Shown: positions 11,680 through 21,000 of the stretch, one piece after another
Position numbering within the stretch: position 1 is the stretch's first letter
Layout: the number at the start of each line of letters is the position of its first letter
Source: the human T2T-CHM13v2.0 reference genome, Homo sapiens
Assembly: GCF_009914755.1 (NCBI RefSeq)
Contig: NC_060926.1
Reading direction: 5' to 3' (one strand)
Length of the DNA stretch: 64,000 nucleotides
Notes under the pieces: model-generated
What the model was told of the DNA's origin: nothing
Databases searched by the model: none
Seen by the model: the letters and a program-made list of their open reading frames with translations, nothing else
Made by a program: the position numbers and the translations under genes

Positions 11680-12190
11680 AAATGTAAGTAACCACCAGAG
11701 CCTGCTTCAGTAATCAAGGGGAATTCATTGTTATAACAGAATAACCCATGAAGTTCAAGGGCCAGAATGCAGCCCAGGGATGTGGACTGCCTCAGGGCAT
11801 AGGCAGAAGGGCCTCTCCAGCTGTCTCTGCTCTGGGCTGGTACTCACTCTGCAGGCCAGGCAGGGCTGCTGCTTTGTGCACATGGCAGCAGCAGCATGCC
11901 CCTAAGCGCTGGGGTCCACCCCACCGCAGATCCAGCTGCACTTGTTCGTGGTTTCTGAATACTGGTTCCAGATCTCAAGAGAGTGAGAATCTGACTGCCC
12001 AGCTTGAGCAAGTGGTCAACCCTGCTCACCCTGCTGTTTGGGGGCTAGTCCCACAAACATGGCAGACACCCCCGACCTCCTATAGGGGGTGCAGAGTCTC
12101 AGAGAGAGGGGCTGTGGTGAACAAAGGGGACAACCCTCCACAAAGGGCCCATGACACTGTGCGAACATGCCCACAGAGGGGTGGGTGCAC
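11680..12190 (-). mobile_element. Old ERVL LTR fragment (LTR33-like)
   Basis: Resemblance to recalled LTR33-family consensus (gagaatctgactgcccagcttg); diverged. Confidence 0.35.
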
Positions 12191-12508
12191 CAATTAGAAA
12201 ATGTTCGCATGAGATATGACTAGATTTCCCAAGAGACAACTCTCATAGATCAATGTGCCTGTCACGGAGGAGCAAGGAGTACGCTTGGAGAGGAAGAGGC
12301 AATGGGTAGCTATTTAAATTCATTGTAAACTGAGAAAACTGTAAACAGGGATGACGCTGCTTATGACATAGTCACATACACAGTGTCACATAGTTAAGGG
12401 GATCAGCCACATTGAGTGTGGATCTCTCCTCCTCTCGGAGCAACGTTCCCATTGACATTCGGAGAGGCACGCTGCCTCCAGATGCTCATTTTCAAACACA
12501 GGACGTGA

Positions 12509-12539
12509 GCAGTTTCACAAATATCCACCAGATGGTACC
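12509..12539 (+). promoter_or_regulatory. Candidate single CTCF site, forward orientation
   Basis: CCACCAGATGGTAC at 12525-12538, preceded by GCAGTTTC (upstream-module-like). Confidence 0.4.
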
Positions 12540-13050
12540 TTCCTACCAGAAATTAGGTTTCAGGTTGTGAAAATCCAAATTGTTTTTCCATTCCACGGAC
12601 AAGCTATAGAATTAGATGCCTATCCTGGCTACGGTCAGAGGAAAGAAAATGGGTGAGAACCAATTCCAGGGAACGACCCACGGAGTTTTTATTCTCAAGA
12701 ATACCAAACAGAACTTGCAGGGTCCTTTGTGTGGTGGAGGGAGGCAGCTGCTGTGGATGAGTCATGGAAAGGCCATGTGCAAGGGAAAGACCTTGAGGTT
12801 ATCTCCGGAGAGGGGTTGGTTGTAAACATCCTCAATGGCACCTTTGTTTTATCCCACTAGTTGCCAAATACCTGTGATTCTGCACAGCGCTCCTGGAATG
12901 CTCAGAAATTATGACTGGTTACTCTGTCAAAGAAAGTCTTTGTTGTAGAAACTTCCTCATTTGTTCAGGCCTTTGGGTTCTAAGCCCTGAGCCATAGTCT
13001 CCCCCGGTTGTTTGCCTGTGTGGGCTAGGGAGGGTGACTGATGTTCACCG

Positions 13051-13135
13051 TGGGGTGACCACCTTGTCCTGGTTTGGCAGCTGCCTTCCTGCCTTTAGCA
13101 GTGACAGTAAAGCAAACCCAGGCGGTTGGTCATCT
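13051..13135. mobile_element. MER81-like hAT MITE remnant
   Basis: Terminal inverted repeats ggggtgacca...tggtcatct. Confidence 0.45.
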
Positions 13136-13418
13136 CGGTGCACTGAGCTGTACACACCAGGGACAGTGCTGGATCCTCACGCAGGTTCAATGAGCTGGGC
13201 GATTTGAGGTGGTAGATGCCGTCTTCACATGATTAATCATTTTGTTCTTGGCATTTTCCTAGTAGGTCTCCCTGCTTCCTTTTGCCAGAAAAGGTAAAGT
13301 TCTGGAGAAAGAGGTTTTTTCTTGGCTTTTGAGTTCAGGCCTTACAGAGGTAAAACCGAGTAGATGTGGGAGAACATGTGGTAAACAGATACAACTTTCC
13401 CGGGATGGGGAGAGAAAA

Positions 13419-13546
13419 ATAGTGAAACTCCATCTCCACTAAAAATACAAAAACTAGCCCGGCGTGGTGGCACGCGCCTGTAATCCCAACTACTTGGGAG
13501 GCTGCGGCAGGTGAATCACTTGAAGCCGGGAGGTGAAGGCCGCAGT
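13419..13546 (+). mobile_element. Internal Alu fragment
   Basis: Central linker ctaaaaatacaaaaactagcccggcgtggtgg plus part of the right arm; both ends missing. Confidence 0.85.
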
Positions 13547-13932
13547 AACGCTGTTCCCTGCATTGGATGAAGTGCTCCCCACCAAACTCCCTCACCGGAG
13601 AGGGTGGGATCTGCGGGCTCCCTGGGTGGCTTGATTTCGACACCCTGTGGGCTGCCTTCCACTCTGGTACTTTCCTCTGCCTGCTGATGCTTGAAATTCC
13701 TTGAACCGGCCACACACACCTGCTTTCTGGAATCAGAACACTGGAAAGGCTTCCTGGGACGGGAGAAGAGTGATTTACATTCCTGCCGAGGTGTAAAGCT
13801 GCGGATGGCAGGTTCTCTCCTGAGAACCGGCTTCAACTAGGAGGAGGAGGTTGGAAGCAGGACCCCGAGCTGACCTGTTGACCAGGAGAGGAGTAAGCAG
13901 AAGGGAGGCAGGAGCGGGCGGAGGAGAGAAGG

Positions 13933-14021
13933 CCGGGGAGCCGGGATGGGGGTCACCGCCCCCGGGGAGCCGGGATGGGGGTCACCGCCCCCGGGGAGCC
14001 GGGATGGGGGTCACCGCCCCC
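13933..14021. repeat. 29-bp GC-rich tandem repeat, 3 copies
   Basis: ccggggagccgggatgggggtcaccgccc starting at 13933, 13962 and 13991. Confidence 0.95.
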
Positions 14022-14251
14022 GCCCCCGTGATGCCGAGCTGAAAAAGACAGTCTCCAAGTAGGATAATCCGTCACACTAGATGCATATAGCTTCATGCAA
14101 GAAGAGCGACTGTTGCGCTGTCTTCTACCCCCTTTGGCCGCGATCCCGTGACAATGCCGGCATCCGGGCACCAACTGGCTTTTGCGAACCGCTCTCCGCT
14201 CCCCGCCCGGATTCCGAAGCCCGGAGCCGTTTACAGTTTGAGGCGCCGTGT

Positions 14252-14771
14252 GCCGCCCCCTGGTGGCCGGAGGCCGTTACTGTCGCGGCTGAGGAGGCGT
14301 CCCGGTGTATCCGCAGCGCGCCCTGGCCGCCCCCTGGTGGCCGGAGGCCGTTACTGTCGCGGCTGAGGGGGCGTCCCGGTGTATCCGCAGCGCGCCCTGG
14401 CCGCCCTCTGGTGGCCGGAGGCCGTTACTGTCGCGGCTGAGGGGGCGTCCCGGTGTATCCGCAGCGCGCCCTGGCCGCCCCCTGGTGGCCGGAGGCCGTT
14501 ACTGTCGCGGCTGAGGGGGCGTCCCGGTGTATCCGCAGCGCGCCCTGGCTGCCCCCTGGTGGCCGGAGGCCGTTACTGTCGCGGCTGAAGGGGCGTGTCC
14601 CGGTGTATCCGCAGCGCGCCCTGGCTGCCCCCTGGTGGCCGGAGGCCGTTACTGTCGCGGCTGAGGGGGCGTCCCGGTGTATCCGCAGCGCGCCCTGGCT
14701 GCCCCTTGGTGGCCGGAGGCCGTTACTGTCGCGGCTGAGGGGGCGTCCCGGTGTATCCGCAGCGCGCCCTG
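14252..14771 (-). repeat. 74-bp minisatellite, 7 copies, each with a CTCF core motif on the minus strand
   Basis: Units start at 14252, 14326, 14400, 14474, 14548, 14624 and 14698. Each begins GC(C/T)GCCCCCTGGTGGCC (reverse complement GGCCACCAGGGGGC(G/A)GC), with single-base variants in copies 3 and 7. Confidence 0.95.
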
Positions 14772-15149
14772 TCCCGCCATATACATTCCGTGCTTTTCAA
14801 ACACCCGCCGTGGGCTAAGCATGGGACCCACGTGGGGCGGGGACACACGGCGATAAAGAGCCAGGCCCTCGCTGCCAAGGAGCTTTCCCGTAACACCGAT
14901 GCGTCAAACAAAAGGTAGTAAAAGTGCCTGGGTTTTTGCGTTGAAATATCTTTCCCTTCAACTCCCCACAAGGTGCTTTTACTCCCCGTCATCACCACCG
15001 CCTGCCAGAGGCAGTAAACTTGGGTCCAGCGGGCCCCTGTCAAGCTGCATAACCACACAGTGAGAGGCTGTCTAGAGAAAGGCGTTTGTTCAGGAGCAGA
15101 GCGTTGCAACGGTAACACGCATGTCATAGTAAACTGTGCATATTCGAGG

Positions 15150-15828
<679 letters not shown>

Positions 15829-16100
15829 AACTTCCACACCACCTAGCACTTTATCTCCAACCCTCGGGGACAGCTGGTCTTGTAGACTCTGGCAATTCTA
15901 GACAATAACCTCACAGACAAACCATGATTACTCATTTCCCTGGGGCATGGCTGCTCTCAGCCCTTCAACATCCCCAGTCCTACTTATTTGCTTATCTCCT
16001 GGCCAGGCAAACCTCCTTTCCCCATGAAGTCCTTCCATGCCTGCTCCAAACCCACATGGCCTCTTTATTCTCAGGACTTCTCTCTACCATTATTTTTTTC

Positions 16101-16616: not shown

Positions 16617-17547
16617 TGCTGAGGGGTCTGCTCCGTCTCCTCACTCAGGACTCAGGCTAACGGTGCCTCCACTCGTCAATATCCCAGAAGAGAGAAAGGG
16701 GATGTGGTAATTTGCACACTGGCTCTTGGAGTGTTTTTGGATGGAGTAATCTACAACACTTCCAATCGCATGTCTTTGGTCAAGGCTAGCCAGGAGGCCA
16801 TTCCTAACCTGGAAGGGGTGGGGAAATGAAGTCCTACCCTGTGCTCAGAAGAAGTGAGCACTAGGTTATTGGTAAACAGCCCAAATCACTACCATGGTTA
16901 GAGGTATTTCCATAACTGCTGTTAGGAAAAACTGATTTCTCCATCTTATTAAAAGAAATTAGAGGTGAGGGTGGGGGTGAAGGCAAAAGAAAAAAACCAG
17001 AAATTTGTATTAAGCATAATCTTTTTCCTTGTAATTTCTATCTAGTGGTTAACCATTGCTTTCTAGTGAGCAGAAAAAAGCTTTCCATACCCACTTAAAT
17101 ATGTGAAAATAAGTAAATGTTGCATTCCCTTATCTTTTCTTCTCAGGATTAGGTGCCTCCCCATTTTTTTTTTTTTACCACACTTTCCTCATACGATGTA
17201 GTTTCCAGAACTTTATTTACCATTGATAATATATACTAACTGAATTGTAGCAGGCTGTATTCACTAAGTGAGCCAAACCGCGCCCAGCCTCATTTTATTA
17301 TTATTTTGTGGTTCTAGATACAGACTAGACTCAAACATAGAAGAAAGCAATTTATTTTGAGATGGTGGCAAGTCAGGGGAGCCTCTAAGTCCTACTTGTT
17401 GGAGTTTTTTGGTTGCCCTGTGACCTCTCGCCTTTGGCTTCCTCATTAGATATTAAAGACATTGGCGGTAACACTGGAATGGATGTGAAGATGGGAGAGG
17501 TCTACCCATAGCCCATTCTACAGAGCAGAACTGAGGCTCAGATATTG

Positions 17548-18025
17548 AGGTAGATTAAAGATGGCTGCCAGTTCAATGCCACTTGTCCCGTTGAACTGTG
17601 AAGTCTTATCCCCCTCCTTGGGTCTGCACCAGCCTTGATGACTTGCTCACTACAATGTGGTAGAAGTGATGGTGCATGACTTCCAAGGTTAGATCAGAAG
17701 AAGCCTTGAAGTTCCTGCCTTGGTCTCTTGAAACAACTTACCGTGTAAGAAGTCTGACACCCTGAGACCGCCATGTTGGCACAGTTATGGGTGGATGCTC
17801 CAGTAGATGGATCCAGCTGAGCCCAGCCGTCCAGCCATTCCCACCCCCAAACCATGGGTGAAACTGTCTTGGACCCTCCAGTCCAGCCCACTCAACATCT
17901 AAATACCACAGACTGACCTCAGCTGATACCATCACCCAGTTAAAATGTGCCTGAAACTGACCCACAAAATCATGAGATAAACTAAAATGGTTGTTGTCCT
18001 AAGCCACTAAGATAATAGAGCAGAT
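17548..18025 (+). mobile_element. MaLR LTR (MLT1G/H-like)
   Basis: aaagatggctgcca start; cccacaaaatcatgagataa...aagccactaag end. Confidence 0.65.
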
Positions 18026-21000
18026 ATATATGCACTTAACACTCTCTCCTGGGGGTCTGCTTTTCCTTTCCCCATTTTGTGTTGCACGCCTGGTTGTTCT
18101 CACAGATTTCATGAGTGGGGAGGTGTGATGAGCCTGGGATATTCATCTTCAACAGAAACAATCCAGATAAACTCTTCATTCAAACAGGGTTTGGGCTGCA
18201 CTGCAATTTTGTTGTCAAATTGGATTTGGAGGTGCTCAGGTTTAGCAAGCACTTCCATGGGAAAGAGAACTCTGTTGGATGGTAATGTAAGAGGACTCTG
18301 TCTACAGAAATAAGGTGAGACAGCTCAGTGCAGTTTAACAATTGTGCCATGTGCTTAACTAATCTCTTTCTTACAGTTACTCTTTGAAGTGAGTATTGTT
18401 TCCATTATACAGACAAGTAAATTGAGGCCAGGCAGCACAAGCAGTAAGTGCCAGATGGGATTTCAAACCAGGCTTGTTTACCAGATAGGCTACCATGAGG
18501 TTAATGCCCAAGAGACAGACCTAAACATTCATTTTATAAATGAGAAGACTGAAGACCAGAGAGATTAAGTAGTTTTGCTGCTGTGCTCTATAACTAACCA
18601 CGCCTTTTCTGGCCAGTAGACTCCAGCCTGATCCTCAAGGCTCTCTGGAGTGTAGGCCAAAGCCATGCTGAGTGAGTGTCTTCGGGAGTGCTATTTTACG
18701 AGGGAAATAGAAGAGATGATATCTGTACTTCCATTTCTAGTATGTTCCCAGAGAAAGCAAGTCCCTGATCACCTTCTGTTTCATTCGTGGCAGAAGGCTG
18801 GGGACTGTGATTTGGTGGATGAACAGTTAGTACCTCCAAAATGCTGGATTGCTGTCATGTGCTTTTCTCTGGAGAGAGCATCCTCTCAAGAAAACATCCA
18901 TCCCTGTGATCTGGCAGAGGTCACAAAGATAGTTCCATCTTTGCTCCACAGCACGGAAAACGGGAGATATAGTAAATCAGTGGAGCTATTCTGGGATCAC
19001 AGGCTACTCAAAAGACCATTCCTGGCTTCTCTTGCATCTCTCAGGCTGCCTGGGCGCGGGACCCAAGTCAGCATCCATCAGCAGCAGGGGGAGTGGTGCA
19101 GAGGCTGGTGCGGAACGTTACGTATTTACAAATAGAACAAGGACCCGGTGTGACTTGGATAAAGAGAAGTCCAAATAGGGTCAGAAATTCTAAGTTGAAA
19201 TCACTCTGGAGATTAAGTATTTATGAAGCACTTTGTACCCACAAAATGAATTTGAATCATTTATCATCCAAACTCACAGTGTCATAGTAACATATAAGTA
19301 TCTGGGTTATGGCTAAGGACCCAAACTTGAACTACTACCTGTATAAAAAGGGGACATTTTTATGCACGTGGGTCCTGTTTTTAATGCTATTGTGGAGCAA
19401 AATCAAGAATTTTAAAAATAAATACCTGAGTCTTGATCCAGACCCATCATGACTGTGGAAACCTGTAATTCTCTCCTGTGACACTTCTGAAATGGTGGCT
19501 CTCCTGTCGCAGGCAGCAGTGAAAGGCGGATTCTTTCCGATGAATCTCTAATAACCCTCCCTTCTTTGTCTCACAACGTGGTGATTTGCCTTGTGTAGCT
19601 CTTTATGTTCTGAGATGAGCAGATGACAGATTGGGATGCTGGAGATTTTGAATGTGCACACGGCTGAGAAGACCACGCCAGTTGGCTTACATGCCGAATT
19701 CAAGGTGAAAACTGCTTTGGGTTGTGGTAGTTGAAGCTGTTTGCAAAATCAGGAGCTGACTGTGGCTCTGCTGGTTATCCAGAAGCCTCCAGGAAGTCAT
19801 AGTACATCTCATTTCTCCTCTGACTGTTCAAATGACCTCTTTCACAAAAATACTTCTCTACTTAATCTACCCTCTCTCCAATTGTCTAAAACCCCACTTT
19901 ACTTCTTAGAATTATTGACCATAGGATCTAAAAGGAATTGTATAGATTATTTCATCCAACCTTCTTATTTCATTAATGAGGAAACTGAGAGTCTAAAATG
20001 TTAAAATAAGACTAGAATACAAGTATTTCAAGTCTTCTTTCAATCTTGTAATGTTTGATTTTGTTAAACATGTATCCCATAGCTACATTGAATGCTTTTT
20101 ACTTTGGATTCTTCTCCATTCCCTAGTATGCCTTACTCAGGGCTCATTCATAGCACAGAAATGTCTGATCAGCAGTTGACTGGTAGTGGCTGCCTGGAGT
20201 GCTCTGCTTAGGAGGAGCCAGCGGAATAGATCTCACGGTTTCTCTCCAGATGTGACCTCTACTGAGATAACTTTGATCACCCTAGCTAAAAAGTGTCGTC
20301 TCTCCCCGATTCCCTTAGGCACACATTATCCCCTTTCCTTACCTAATTGTACTCCTATCACCTCTCATTAACTAAAATTATTTTTCTTGTGTATTGCCTT
20401 ATTTCCCCACGAGAATGTAAGTTCCAAGAGGGCAGGGACTTTGTTTGTCTCAACCACTGCAGGGTCTGCTGTGCTTATGAGAGTGCTGACATGTAGGAGT
20501 CACTCAATAAATAACTGTGGAATAGATGGCCAAATGCTGCCATTGATTAGTGATGTCTGCCGTGGGCAATGGAGAGACAAATTACTGGGGTCAACGCAAA
20601 GCTTTTGTCACCGGTGGTTATTGGCCAACCAACCAATCCCAGATGCAAGACTGGTTTCCTTTTGACATTCAATTTAATTCTGGGCCATTGTGGGATAACC
20701 AGTTATTAGATACTCTGGAAGGAAGAATTCCCTGAATCACTAGTTAGGCAACTTAAAAGAAGAAAGGCACATTTTCTGCTATCTCTTCTCCTCATTGTCT
20801 TATTCATCATGACACTTCTACAACGTTGCAGAATTCTTAGCACATAGTAGGCGCACAATAAATATTTATTCACTGATAATTTGTGCTTTCTCAATGTCAT
20901 TTTAAGAGGATTTTGTAAAACTTTCCTGCTAATCTGAAAGAGCTGCACCACAGAACACAGTATATAGCTCAAAGTACACAGTACGTATTGGTGTGCCTGA

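What the first reader, a model, noticed from the sequence alone, without database searches (positions are those of the whole stretch)
14252..14771. Seven-copy 74-bp minisatellite forming a unidirectional CTCF-motif array (candidate VNTR super-anchor)
Seen: seven near-identical units, reading on the minus strand GACAGTAAC-ggcctc-CGGCCACCAGGGGGC(G/A)GC. Copy 3 has AGAGGGCG, which still fits the consensus; copy 7 has the weaker AAGGGGCA. Established: CCACCAGGGGGCGC is the CTCF core (JASPAR MA0139-type), a TGCAGT-like upstream module 5-6 bp away is read by zinc fingers 9-11, and co-oriented CTCF clusters such as the Igh 3' CBEs, FIRRE and DXZ4 repeats act as strong loop-extrusion barriers. Inference: this is a compact, recently amplified insulator whose motifs all point toward the left of the window, i.e. 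toward the upstream gene. A 74-bp period is about 7 helical turns at 10.5 bp, so the sites would lie on one DNA face and be too close for nucleosomes between them. Copy number may vary between individuals and tune boundary strength.
Basis: partly seen in the sequence, partly recalled or inferred. Interest (0 to 1): 0.82.

Follow-up and report, generated by a model that had tools for sequence, protein, structure and literature searches.

The report
Polymorphic CTCF-motif minisatellite in lncRNA promoter
A 74-base unit carrying a textbook binding site for the genome-folding protein CTCF is repeated seven times at the start of two non-coding RNA genes on human chromosome 2, varies in copy number between genomes, and is a further example of a kind of element already described.

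Summary
TRF finds a 74-bp unit in 7.1 copies, 97% matching, at 14243-14771. Every unit has a CTCF core on the minus strand: 6 of 7 match the 15-mer consensus exactly and 1 has one mismatch. The unit occurs at one locus only in T2T-CHM13.

The VNTR guess is supported. GRCh38 holds 388 bp against 529 bp here. Two RefSeq "introns" of exactly 74 nt are alignment gaps. The locus is a published testis eVNTR.

The "super-anchor" reading could not be tested, and the context points elsewhere:
- The array is the core of a CpG island that holds annotated 5' ends of LINC01191 and LINC02992.
- LINC01191 is testis-specific with outlier expression.
- A CpG about 120 bp away is 82-88% methylated in blood.
- No eVNTR row exists for ACTR3.

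My best reading is a clustered CTCF/BORIS target site of the "2xCTS"/VNTR kind acting as a germline promoter. Any barrier role is secondary and unproven. Tandem repeats co-bound by CTCF and BORIS are already in print. Four other regular arrays of consensus CTCF cores exist in this genome. I class it as a new member of a known kind, of moderate interest.

The parts
14243..14771 (-). 74-bp minisatellite, 7.1 units (one of 76 bp), at a single locus in the genome
   Evidence: TRF; the repeat finder; unit sequences; own-genome search finds only this locus
14252..14266 (-). CTCF core, unit 1 (CCACCAGGGGGCGGC), exact to the 15-mer consensus
14326..14340 (-). CTCF core, unit 2, exact
14400..14414 (-). 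CTCF core, unit 3 (G to A at position 8, still within the consensus)
14474..14488 (-). CTCF core, unit 4, exact
14548..14562 (-). CTCF core, unit 5 (GCA in place of GCG; the position-12 CpG is lost)
14624..14638 (-). CTCF core, unit 6 (GCA). The annotated LINC02992 5' end (14622) lies 2 nt beyond its 3' end
   Evidence: hub gene table
14698..14712 (-). CTCF core, unit 7, one mismatch (position 7, G to A)
14276..14284 (-). GACAGTAAC, the candidate upstream (ZF9-11) module of unit 1, 9 nt 5' of the core. It recurs in every unit. It also contains a MYB-like TAACGG
   Evidence: The match to the upstream consensus is partial (5 of 9, consensus recalled)
13800..15000 (.). CpG island around the array (GC 67%, CpG observed/expected 0.86; flanks 0.42 and 0.45)
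14207..14272 (+). First exon of LINC01191 NR_148509.1, starting 36 bp left of the array. The next two 'introns' (14273-14346 and 14645-14718) are each exactly 74 nt and are GC-AG
   Evidence: hub gene table
14315..14504 (.). RefSeq 'silencer', covering the cores of units 2-4
   Evidence: hub table. Its length of 190 = 50+10n fits ATAC-STARR-seq binning; that source is inferred, not verified
14075..14224 (.). RefSeq 'enhancer' directly left of the array
   Evidence: hub table; length 150 = 50+10n; source inferred

Best explanation
The block is a single-locus minisatellite that varies in copy number: about 5 units in GRCh38-based models and 7 in CHM13. It forms the core of a CpG island from which LINC01191 (+) and LINC02992 (-) are transcribed in opposite directions.

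Each 74-bp unit carries three things. On the minus strand there is a consensus CTCF core, with a partial upstream module 9 nt before it. On the plus strand there is a GC-box/EGR-like G-run.

I read it as a multi-site CTCF/CTCFL (BORIS) docking platform of the 'clustered CTCF target site' (2xCTS) or CTCF&BORIS-bound VNTR kind. Its main job is promoter activity for a germline-restricted lncRNA pair. In male germ cells the island would be unmethylated, several sites would be occupied by CTCF together with BORIS, and transcription would start inside and beside the array. In most somatic cells the island is largely methylated and quiet.

The only CpG inside the core is at position 12, not at the methylation-sensitive position 2. 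Some CTCF binding may therefore persist in somatic cells. If so, the array would face left, towards the ACTR3 side, as a barrier or a reporter 'silencer'. Unit number modulates local transcription in testis.

Shown: the array, the motifs, their orientation, the single locus, the length difference between assemblies, the overlap with annotated 5' ends, testis specificity, the eVNTR row, and methylation beside the array in blood.

Inferred: CTCF and BORIS occupancy, the germline methylation state, and any barrier activity.
For: - Array and motifs. Single locus. CpG island.
- 5' ends at 14207 (+), 14671 (+) and 14622 (-) lie at or inside the array (hub table; register).
- LINC01191 is testis-specific with outlier expression (PMC6742485, one passage).
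[quoted passage not shown] - Length eVNTR: TR chr2:113979603-113979990 (hg38, 388 bp), testis, AC110769.3, slope -0.284, p 3.9e-7, q 9.1e-5 (PMC10234305, Supplemental Data S2).
- Two 74-nt GC-AG gaps can slide over 44 and 66 positions without changing the spliced product.
[quoted passage not shown] Here position 2 is CpA.
- Distal ATAC-STARR-seq 'silent' regions are enriched for CTCF/BORIS motifs (PMC9435738, passage).
Against: - No occupancy data of any kind were available.
- hg19 coordinates 114736-114738xxx and the gene names were absent from the supplements held as text for the BORIS papers: PMC10832218 (7 files) and PMC4562119 (2 files). So nothing shows BORIS or CTCF binding there in K562.
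- Table S2 of PMC5007689 could not be opened.
- The eVNTR row is for AC110769.3, not for LINC01191 or LINC02992, and its slope is negative: a longer array goes with less RNA.
- 2xCTS heatmaps used 30-40-bp linkers. Here the linker between 15-mer cores is 59 bp.
- The methylation value comes from one array probe beside the repeat, not inside it.
- The upstream module is a weak match.
Confidence: 0.5

Rival explanations
1. The array is a constitutive, multi-occupied, leftward-facing CTCF/cohesin barrier (a 'super-anchor') in somatic cells. It closes the ACTR3 domain against the gene-poor region towards DPP10, and its strength scales with copy number.
For: - Six exact and one near-exact consensus cores are all co-oriented.
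- They are the only cluster among 11 sites with at most one mismatch in 264 kb.
- More copies of a CTCF site give stronger insulation, and blocking is stronger when the N-terminal side faces the enhancer (passages).
- The cores lack the methylation-sensitive CpG at position 2.
- A RefSeq 'silencer' lies over units 2-4 (hub table), and silent ATAC-STARR regions are CTCF-rich.
Against: - A CpG in the same island has beta 0.82-0.88 in blood.
- The location is a promoter.
- The eVNTR table has no row for ACTR3 in any tissue.
- No forward consensus partner lies in the 200 kb to the left, apart from a site 1.7 kb away. This used a strict criterion of at most one mismatch.
- No paper in the library links ACTR3, DPP10 and CTCF (0 papers).
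- Occupancy and contacts were not tested.
Confidence: 0.2
2. The CTCF motif is incidental. The repeat is an ordinary CpG-island promoter VNTR whose activity comes from other factors: SP/KLF/EGR-type G-runs on the plus strand, MYB-type TAACGG on the minus strand, and general CpG-island promoter properties. CTCF does not occupy it in vivo.
For: - Each unit has a YAACNG hexamer (7 of 7, minus strand). Five of 7 units have a G.GGGGGCG run on the plus strand.
- A consensus CTCF 15-mer in a unit of this composition has probability about 1.1e-4. About 6 such cases would be expected among 55,000 GC-rich VNTR units (VNTR number from the abstract of PMC8327921).
- Testis-specific promoters are often driven by germline factors (general knowledge).
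Against: - The YAACNG hexamer is expected by chance in about 16% of such units, so it carries little weight.
- The core is an exact match to the strongest form of the consensus, and such sites in open chromatin are usually bound (general knowledge, not tested here).
- Published work finds CTCF&BORIS co-binding precisely at VNTR-like clustered sites.
Confidence: 0.2
3. The repeat is a neutral minisatellite. It arose by slippage or unequal exchange inside a CpG island and has no effect of its own. The testis expression association reflects linkage with nearby variants.
For: - It gives one eVNTR row of modest strength (p 3.9e-7) for one small neighbouring gene in one tissue.
- Three of the 6 variable sites among units fall inside the CTCF core, which gives no sign of constraint on the cores.
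Against: - Annotated 5' ends of two genes lie in it (hub table).
- RefSeq functional elements overlap and adjoin it (hub table).
- Consensus CTCF sites have a known biochemical activity.
Confidence: 0.1

Closest known systems
Clustered CTCF target sites (2xCTS) and CTCF&BORIS-bound tandem repeats/VNTRs (PMC4562119, PMC10832218, PMC5007689)
   Same: Two or more closely spaced CTCF motifs, often on one strand. They sit at promoters, are linked to testis-specific start sites, and often lie in otherwise uncharacterised tandem repeats.
   Different: There are seven sites rather than two. The 74-bp period leaves a longer linker than the 30-40 bp shown in those papers. Occupancy at this locus is not shown, and it was not found in the supplements I could search.
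DXZ4 / FIRRE / ICCE: CTCF-binding tandem repeats on the X chromosome
   Same: Tandem units each carry a CTCF motif, all co-oriented, and copy number is polymorphic. The orientation sets the direction of contacts (abstracts only).
   Different: Those are kb-scale macrosatellite units, X-linked, and bound on the inactive X as superloop anchors. This one is a 74-bp autosomal unit, 0.5 kb in all, inside a promoter CpG island.
Subtelomeric 61-bp repeats of the TERRA CpG-island promoters (61-29-37 repeats; the literature is recalled, not read here)
   Same: A CpG-island minisatellite with a CTCF core plus an upstream CAGT module in every unit. Non-coding RNA is transcribed in the direction of the motif. 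A 29-bp repeat lies downstream (window 13933-14022).
   Different: There is no sequence homology (blastn), and the 29-mers are unrelated in sequence. The locus is interstitial, about 375 kb from the chr2 fusion-site relic (match at C2:114028870). The resemblance is in architecture only.
HRNR coding VNTR, proposed to add CTCF sites on expansion (PMC10234305), and the 1q23.3 tRNA VNTR (PMC4041453)
   Same: Both carry the idea that VNTR length sets the number of CTCF sites and so affects neighbouring genes (passages; abstract).
   Different: In HRNR the sites are weak matches in a coding repeat. The tRNA VNTR has 7.3-kb units. Here the sites are exact consensus matches in a 74-bp promoter unit.

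Membership tests
VNTR / eVNTR | Head-to-tail repeat with a unit of 7 bp or more | tested here: met
   Period 74, 7.1 copies, 97% matches
VNTR / eVNTR | Copy number differs between genomes | tested here: met
   GRCh38 TR is 388 bp against 529 bp in CHM13. Two sliding 74-nt alignment gaps in NR_148509.1. Population allele frequencies were not seen
VNTR / eVNTR | Length associated with expression of a nearby gene | tested here: met
   Published row: testis, AC110769.3, slope -0.284, q 9.1e-5. No rows for LINC01191 or ACTR3
Clustered CTCF target site (2xCTS) / CTCF&BORIS-bound tandem repeat | Two or more CTCF motifs close enough to fall under one ChIP peak | tested here: met
   Seven cores at 74-bp spacing within 461 bp
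Clustered CTCF target site (2xCTS) / CTCF&BORIS-bound tandem repeat | Located at an active promoter or enhancer, with testis-specific transcription | tested here: met
   Annotated 5' ends at 14207, 14671 and 14622 (hub table). LINC01191 is testis-specific. Both rest on annotation and literature, not on data analysed here
Clustered CTCF target site (2xCTS) / CTCF&BORIS-bound tandem repeat | [quoted passage not shown] | not testable with these tools
   No ChIP data. Not found in the searchable supplements. Table S2 of PMC5007689 was not seen
CTCF loop anchor / insulator (DXZ4-like 'super-anchor') | Co-oriented CTCF motifs in tandem units | tested here: met
   All seven are on the minus strand
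CTCF loop anchor / insulator (DXZ4-like 'super-anchor') | CTCF and cohesin occupancy | not testable with these tools
   No ChIP data. A neighbouring CpG has beta 0.82-0.88 in blood, which argues for caution
CTCF loop anchor / insulator (DXZ4-like 'super-anchor') | Anchors loops or insulates in contact maps, with a convergent partner | tested here: inconclusive
   No Hi-C. The only forward motif with at most one mismatch in the 200 kb to the left is 1.7 kb away. The right flank was not fetched
Subtelomeric 61-29-37 TERRA promoter repeats | Sequence homology to the 61-mer and 29-mer units | tested here: not met
   blastn of window 13500-15300 against two subtelomeres, the fusion-site relic and the chr9q/chr18p 61-mer arrays. 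Only about 58% periodic matches to the IGH repeat and one 54-nt hit elsewhere
CTCF site with upstream (ZF9-11) module | Upstream motif at the right distance from the core | tested here: inconclusive
   CAGT lies 12 nt before the core, one more than in the genome's 61-mer arrays (11 nt). It matches the recalled consensus at 5 of 9 positions. No PWM was on hand

The most novel reading that the evidence does not exclude
The array is a natural, human-polymorphic dosage series (5, 7 and perhaps more units) of co-oriented consensus CTCF sites that are intrinsically insensitive to methylation. They stay occupied even in a methylated island. The array then acts as a tunable, one-sided loop-extrusion barrier at the edge of the ACTR3 domain, or as a germline-specific loop anchor. 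Ordinary people would then differ in boundary strength at this locus.
Probability: 0.12. Interest if true: 0.7.

Novelty: new member of a known kind. Interest (0 to 1): 0.37.

Why it matters
If the sites are occupied, the locus gives a compact natural allelic series for a question so far studied with engineered insertions: how does the number of co-oriented CTCF sites set promoter activity or barrier strength? It would answer that in humans, at a single-copy and mappable place.

It also shows an annotation artefact. RefSeq models carried over to T2T-CHM13 gain false 74-nt introns where the assembly has more repeat units.

As a kind of element it is not new. VNTR-like clusters of CTCF sites bound by CTCF and BORIS, and the idea that VNTR length changes the number of CTCF sites, are both in print.

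Tried and rejected
1. Homology with the subtelomeric TERRA-promoter repeats. The idea came from the adjacent 29-bp repeat and the closeness to the chr2 fusion relic. blastn and TRF on fetched subtelomeres, the fusion site and the 61-mer arrays showed no homology. Rejected; the parallel is architectural only.
2. Known RNA families. Rfam at E up to 1 over 12000-16000 gave no match inside the array, only Alu-derived SRP/miRNA-like hits in the flanks.
3. A coding repeat. 74 is not a multiple of 3, and the longest open stretches over 14151-14900 are 125 and 123 codons, shorter than the array. Not pursued.
4. A convergent partner. A strict motif scan of the 200 kb to the left found none beyond the site at 12525. 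This is a weak test, since real sites often have more mismatches.
5. Occupancy and lists in supplements:
   - no hits for the hg19 or hg38 coordinates in PMC10832218, PMC4562119 or PMC9435738 (one file not searched);
   - no hits in PMC11701250;
   - the human-specific VNTR list of PMC8327921 holds a different 'LINC01191' VNTR (chr2:114084256-114085200, 104-bp unit), not this one (one file not searched).
6. MYB-site reading. The hexamer is present in all units but is expected by chance in about 16% of such units, so it is kept only inside a rival explanation.
7. Literature on the locus. LINC01191 occurs in 14 papers, none about CTCF or the repeat. LINC02992 gave 0 papers, and ACTR3+DPP10+CTCF gave 0 papers.
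8. The search of earlier findings was not open. Paper reading closed before Table S2 of PMC5007689 could be searched.

Full report
**1. Observation**

The sequence at 14050-15000 holds a clean tandem array. TRF reports 14243-14771 with period 74, 7.1 copies, 97% matches, 1% indels and score 975. The repeat finder gives seven in-register copies spaced 74, 74, 74, 76, 74, 74. The 76 is a 2-nt insertion in unit 5.

The 13-mer CCACCAGGGGGCG, with up to two mismatches, occurs 8 times in the window. Dinucleotide shuffles give 0.80 expected, and 0 of 100 shuffles reached 8. Seven of the 8 are in the array, all on the minus strand. Against the 15-mer IUPAC consensus (recalled from memory), 6 of 7 units are exact and unit 7 has one mismatch. 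The only other site in the 64 kb with at most one mismatch is a forward one at 12525-12539.

A 222-base probe from the array finds only this locus in the 3.1-Gb assembly.

The seven motifs are one motif amplified, and therefore one event. A unit of this composition carries the consensus with probability about 1.1e-4, so a handful of such VNTRs is expected genome-wide.

**2. Surroundings**

The array is the GC peak of a CpG island. GC is 71-76% over 14200-14799. CpG observed/expected is 0.92 in the array and 0.86 over 13800-15000, against 0.42 and 0.45 in the flanks.

By the hub's gene table:
- LINC01191 NR_148509.1 starts at 14207, 36 bp left of the array.
- Another LINC01191 exon starts at 14671, inside unit 6.
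- The single-exon LINC02992 starts on the minus strand at 14622, 2 nt past the 3' end of the unit-6 core.
- RefSeq marks a 'silencer' at 14315-14504, over the cores of units 2-4, and an 'enhancer' at 14075-14224.

Both element lengths (190 and 150 bp) fit the 50-bp bins and 10-bp steps of ATAC-STARR-seq. The distal 'silent' regions of that assay are enriched for CTCF/BORIS motifs (PMC9435738, passages). That the RefSeq elements come from this assay is my inference. The coordinates were not in the supplements I could search.

A perfect 29-bp x 3 repeat lies at 13933-14022. Alu-derived sequence flanks the island.

**3. Copy-number variation**

The two 'introns' of NR_148509.1 inside the array (14273-14346 and 14645-14718) are each exactly 74 nt and GC-AG. 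They can be slid over 44 and 66 positions without changing the spliced product. The genuine third intron is 47.7 kb and GT-AG. These are therefore alignment gaps: the transcript model has five units and CHM13 has seven.

Independently, the danbing-tk catalogue in PMC10234305 lists TR locus 40612 at hg38 chr2:113979603-113979990. That is 388 bp, against 529 bp here.

In that paper's Supplemental Data S2 (Alltissue.egene.eVNTR.tsv; header read), row 5966 gives this TR as the lead eVNTR for AC110769.3 in testis: slope -0.284, p 3.9e-7, q 9.1e-5. AC110769.3 is ENSG00000243179.1, at about window 17445-18039. The same search found no row for LINC01191 or ACTR3; the 'ACTR3' hits were ACTR3B and ACTR3C.

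An effect on the upstream gene is not.

**4. What the motifs imply**

The ZF3/N-terminal side of bound CTCF lies downstream of the core, and blocking is strongest when that side faces the incoming cohesin or the enhancer (PMC12885311 and PMC11417384, passages).

The upstream (ZF9-11) motif occurs in about 13-15% of sites, raises affinity and insulation, and is separated from the core by a variable spacer. Here only the CAGT centre of that module is kept (5 of 9 against the consensus I recall). It lies 12 nt before the core, one more than in the genome's own 61-bp CTCF arrays. I call the upstream module inconclusive.

[quoted passage not shown] In this array position 2 is followed by A. The only core CpG is at position 12, and it is lost in units 5-7. 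The cores are therefore predicted to tolerate methylation. This is an inference.

**5. Evidence on state and function**

LINC01191 is testis-specific and was set aside as an expression outlier in PMC6742485 (one passage). It is also the virus-inducible lincRNA VIN (PMC6060254, table row).

EPIC v2 probe cg26077729 lies at chr2:113,980,111 and is annotated 'LINC01191, Exon, Island'. It maps about 120 bp right of the array, near window 14892. Its mean beta is 0.875 and 0.821 in peripheral blood of two groups of 33 (PMC12570551, table row and methods passages). The island is thus heavily methylated in blood, at least at its edge, which is typical of a germline-restricted CpG-island promoter.

Published work describes the following:
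- BORIS converts clustered sites into testis-specific start sites.

I could not find this locus in the searchable supplements of the first two papers.

**6. How unusual is it?**

I searched the whole assembly for two co-oriented 13-mer consensus cores:

| Start-to-start spacing | Pair matches | Reversed-pattern controls |
|---|---|---|
| 27-57 bp | 34 | 0 |
| 58-88 bp | 72 | 1 |
| 89-119 bp | 35 | 0 |

The tool warns that such counts are lower bounds.

Regular runs of five or more consecutive pairs occur at five loci:
- this one (5 pairs, 74 bp);
- chr7p (11 pairs, 53 bp);
- chr9q (12 pairs, 61 bp);
- chr18p (11 pairs, 61 bp);
- chr14 in the IGH region (5 pairs, 81 bp).

Single pairs occur at many chromosome ends (the subtelomeric 61-mer), and there are smaller sets on chr10 and chrX. 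The locus is rare but not unique.

The subtelomeric 61-mers are followed by a 29-bp repeat (L012). This locus lies about 375 kb from the chr2 fusion-site relic. I therefore tested homology with the TERRA-promoter repeats. There is none. The likeness is in architecture only.

**7. Neighbourhood scan**

I scanned 264 kb: 200 kb to the left plus the window. Only 11 sites match the 15-mer with at most one mismatch, and 7 of them are the array. The sole forward site is the one at 12525, 1.7 kb away. The ACTR3 promoter carries CTCF and BORIS peaks in K562 according to a supplement row, but has no such strict motif. The strict scan is therefore a weak test. The right flank could not be fetched.

**8. 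Verdict**

Best reading (confidence 0.5): a polymorphic, multi-site CTCF/BORIS platform that acts mainly as the germline promoter of the LINC01191/LINC02992 pair. It may also have a secondary leftward barrier or silencer activity where it stays bound.

Rivals:
- a constitutive somatic super-anchor (0.2);
- an incidental motif in a promoter VNTR driven by other factors (0.2);
- a neutral repeat (0.1).

Occupancy, contacts, germline methylation and the age of the amplification remain untested. The kind of element is in print: CTCF&BORIS-bound VNTRs, and the HRNR proposal that VNTR length sets the number of CTCF sites. The locus itself appears only as one row of an eVNTR table and as RefSeq elements. 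My searches found no paper that discusses it. I class it as a new member of a known kind.

Noticed in passing
window 14273-14346 and 14645-14718: Two RefSeq 'introns' of NR_148509.1 are each exactly one repeat unit long (74 nt, GC-AG) and can slide by 44 and 66 positions. They are alignment gaps, caused by CHM13 having two more units than the transcript model, and are not real splicing.
   Followed up: yes
window 13933-14022: A perfect 29-bp x 3.1 tandem repeat (100% identity) lies in the same CpG island, 220 bp left of the 74-bp array. It is unrelated in sequence to the subtelomeric 29-mer.
   Followed up: partly
window 12525-12539 (+): The only forward CTCF-like site with at most one mismatch in 264 kb. 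It lies 1.7 kb left of the array, inside the LINC02992 exon, and is convergent with the array.
   Followed up: no
G000 C9:150391638-150392379 (L006 3048-3937) and C18:250571-251249 (L007 3515-4340): Two long arrays (14.6 and 13.6 units, 95-97% matches) of a 61-bp unit. Each unit has a consensus CTCF core and a TGCAGTGCC upstream module. Both arrays are flanked by degenerate telomere-like repeats, about 225-250 kb from the chromosome ends.
   Followed up: partly
G000 C7:363156-363857: A 53-bp minisatellite with a consensus CTCF core in nearly every unit (11 consecutive-pair matches), near the chr7 short-arm end.
   Followed up: no
G000 C14:100270530-101154716, with orphon copies on C15:19.08 Mb and C16:32-35 Mb: Repeats of about 20 and 81 bp in the IGH region are full of CCACCAGGGGGCG cores, all on one strand. 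L010 shows 105 copies of a 19-bp unit.
   Followed up: no
window ~14889-14902: EPIC probe cg26077729 (hg38 chr2:113,980,111) maps here. It is 82-88% methylated in blood, and was nominally, not significantly, different between SSRI responders and non-responders in PMC12570551.
   Followed up: partly
outside the window, hg38 chr2:114084256-114085200: A different VNTR with a 104-bp unit, labelled LINC01191, is on the list of human-specific VNTRs in PMC8327921.
   Followed up: no
window 14365-14737 (+), once per unit in 5 of 7 units: A G.GGGGGCG run (EGR/SP-like) lies on the strand opposite the CTCF core. It also equals the 3' half of a CTCF core (9 of 15 positions), which gives each unit a weak divergent half-site.
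   Followed up: no
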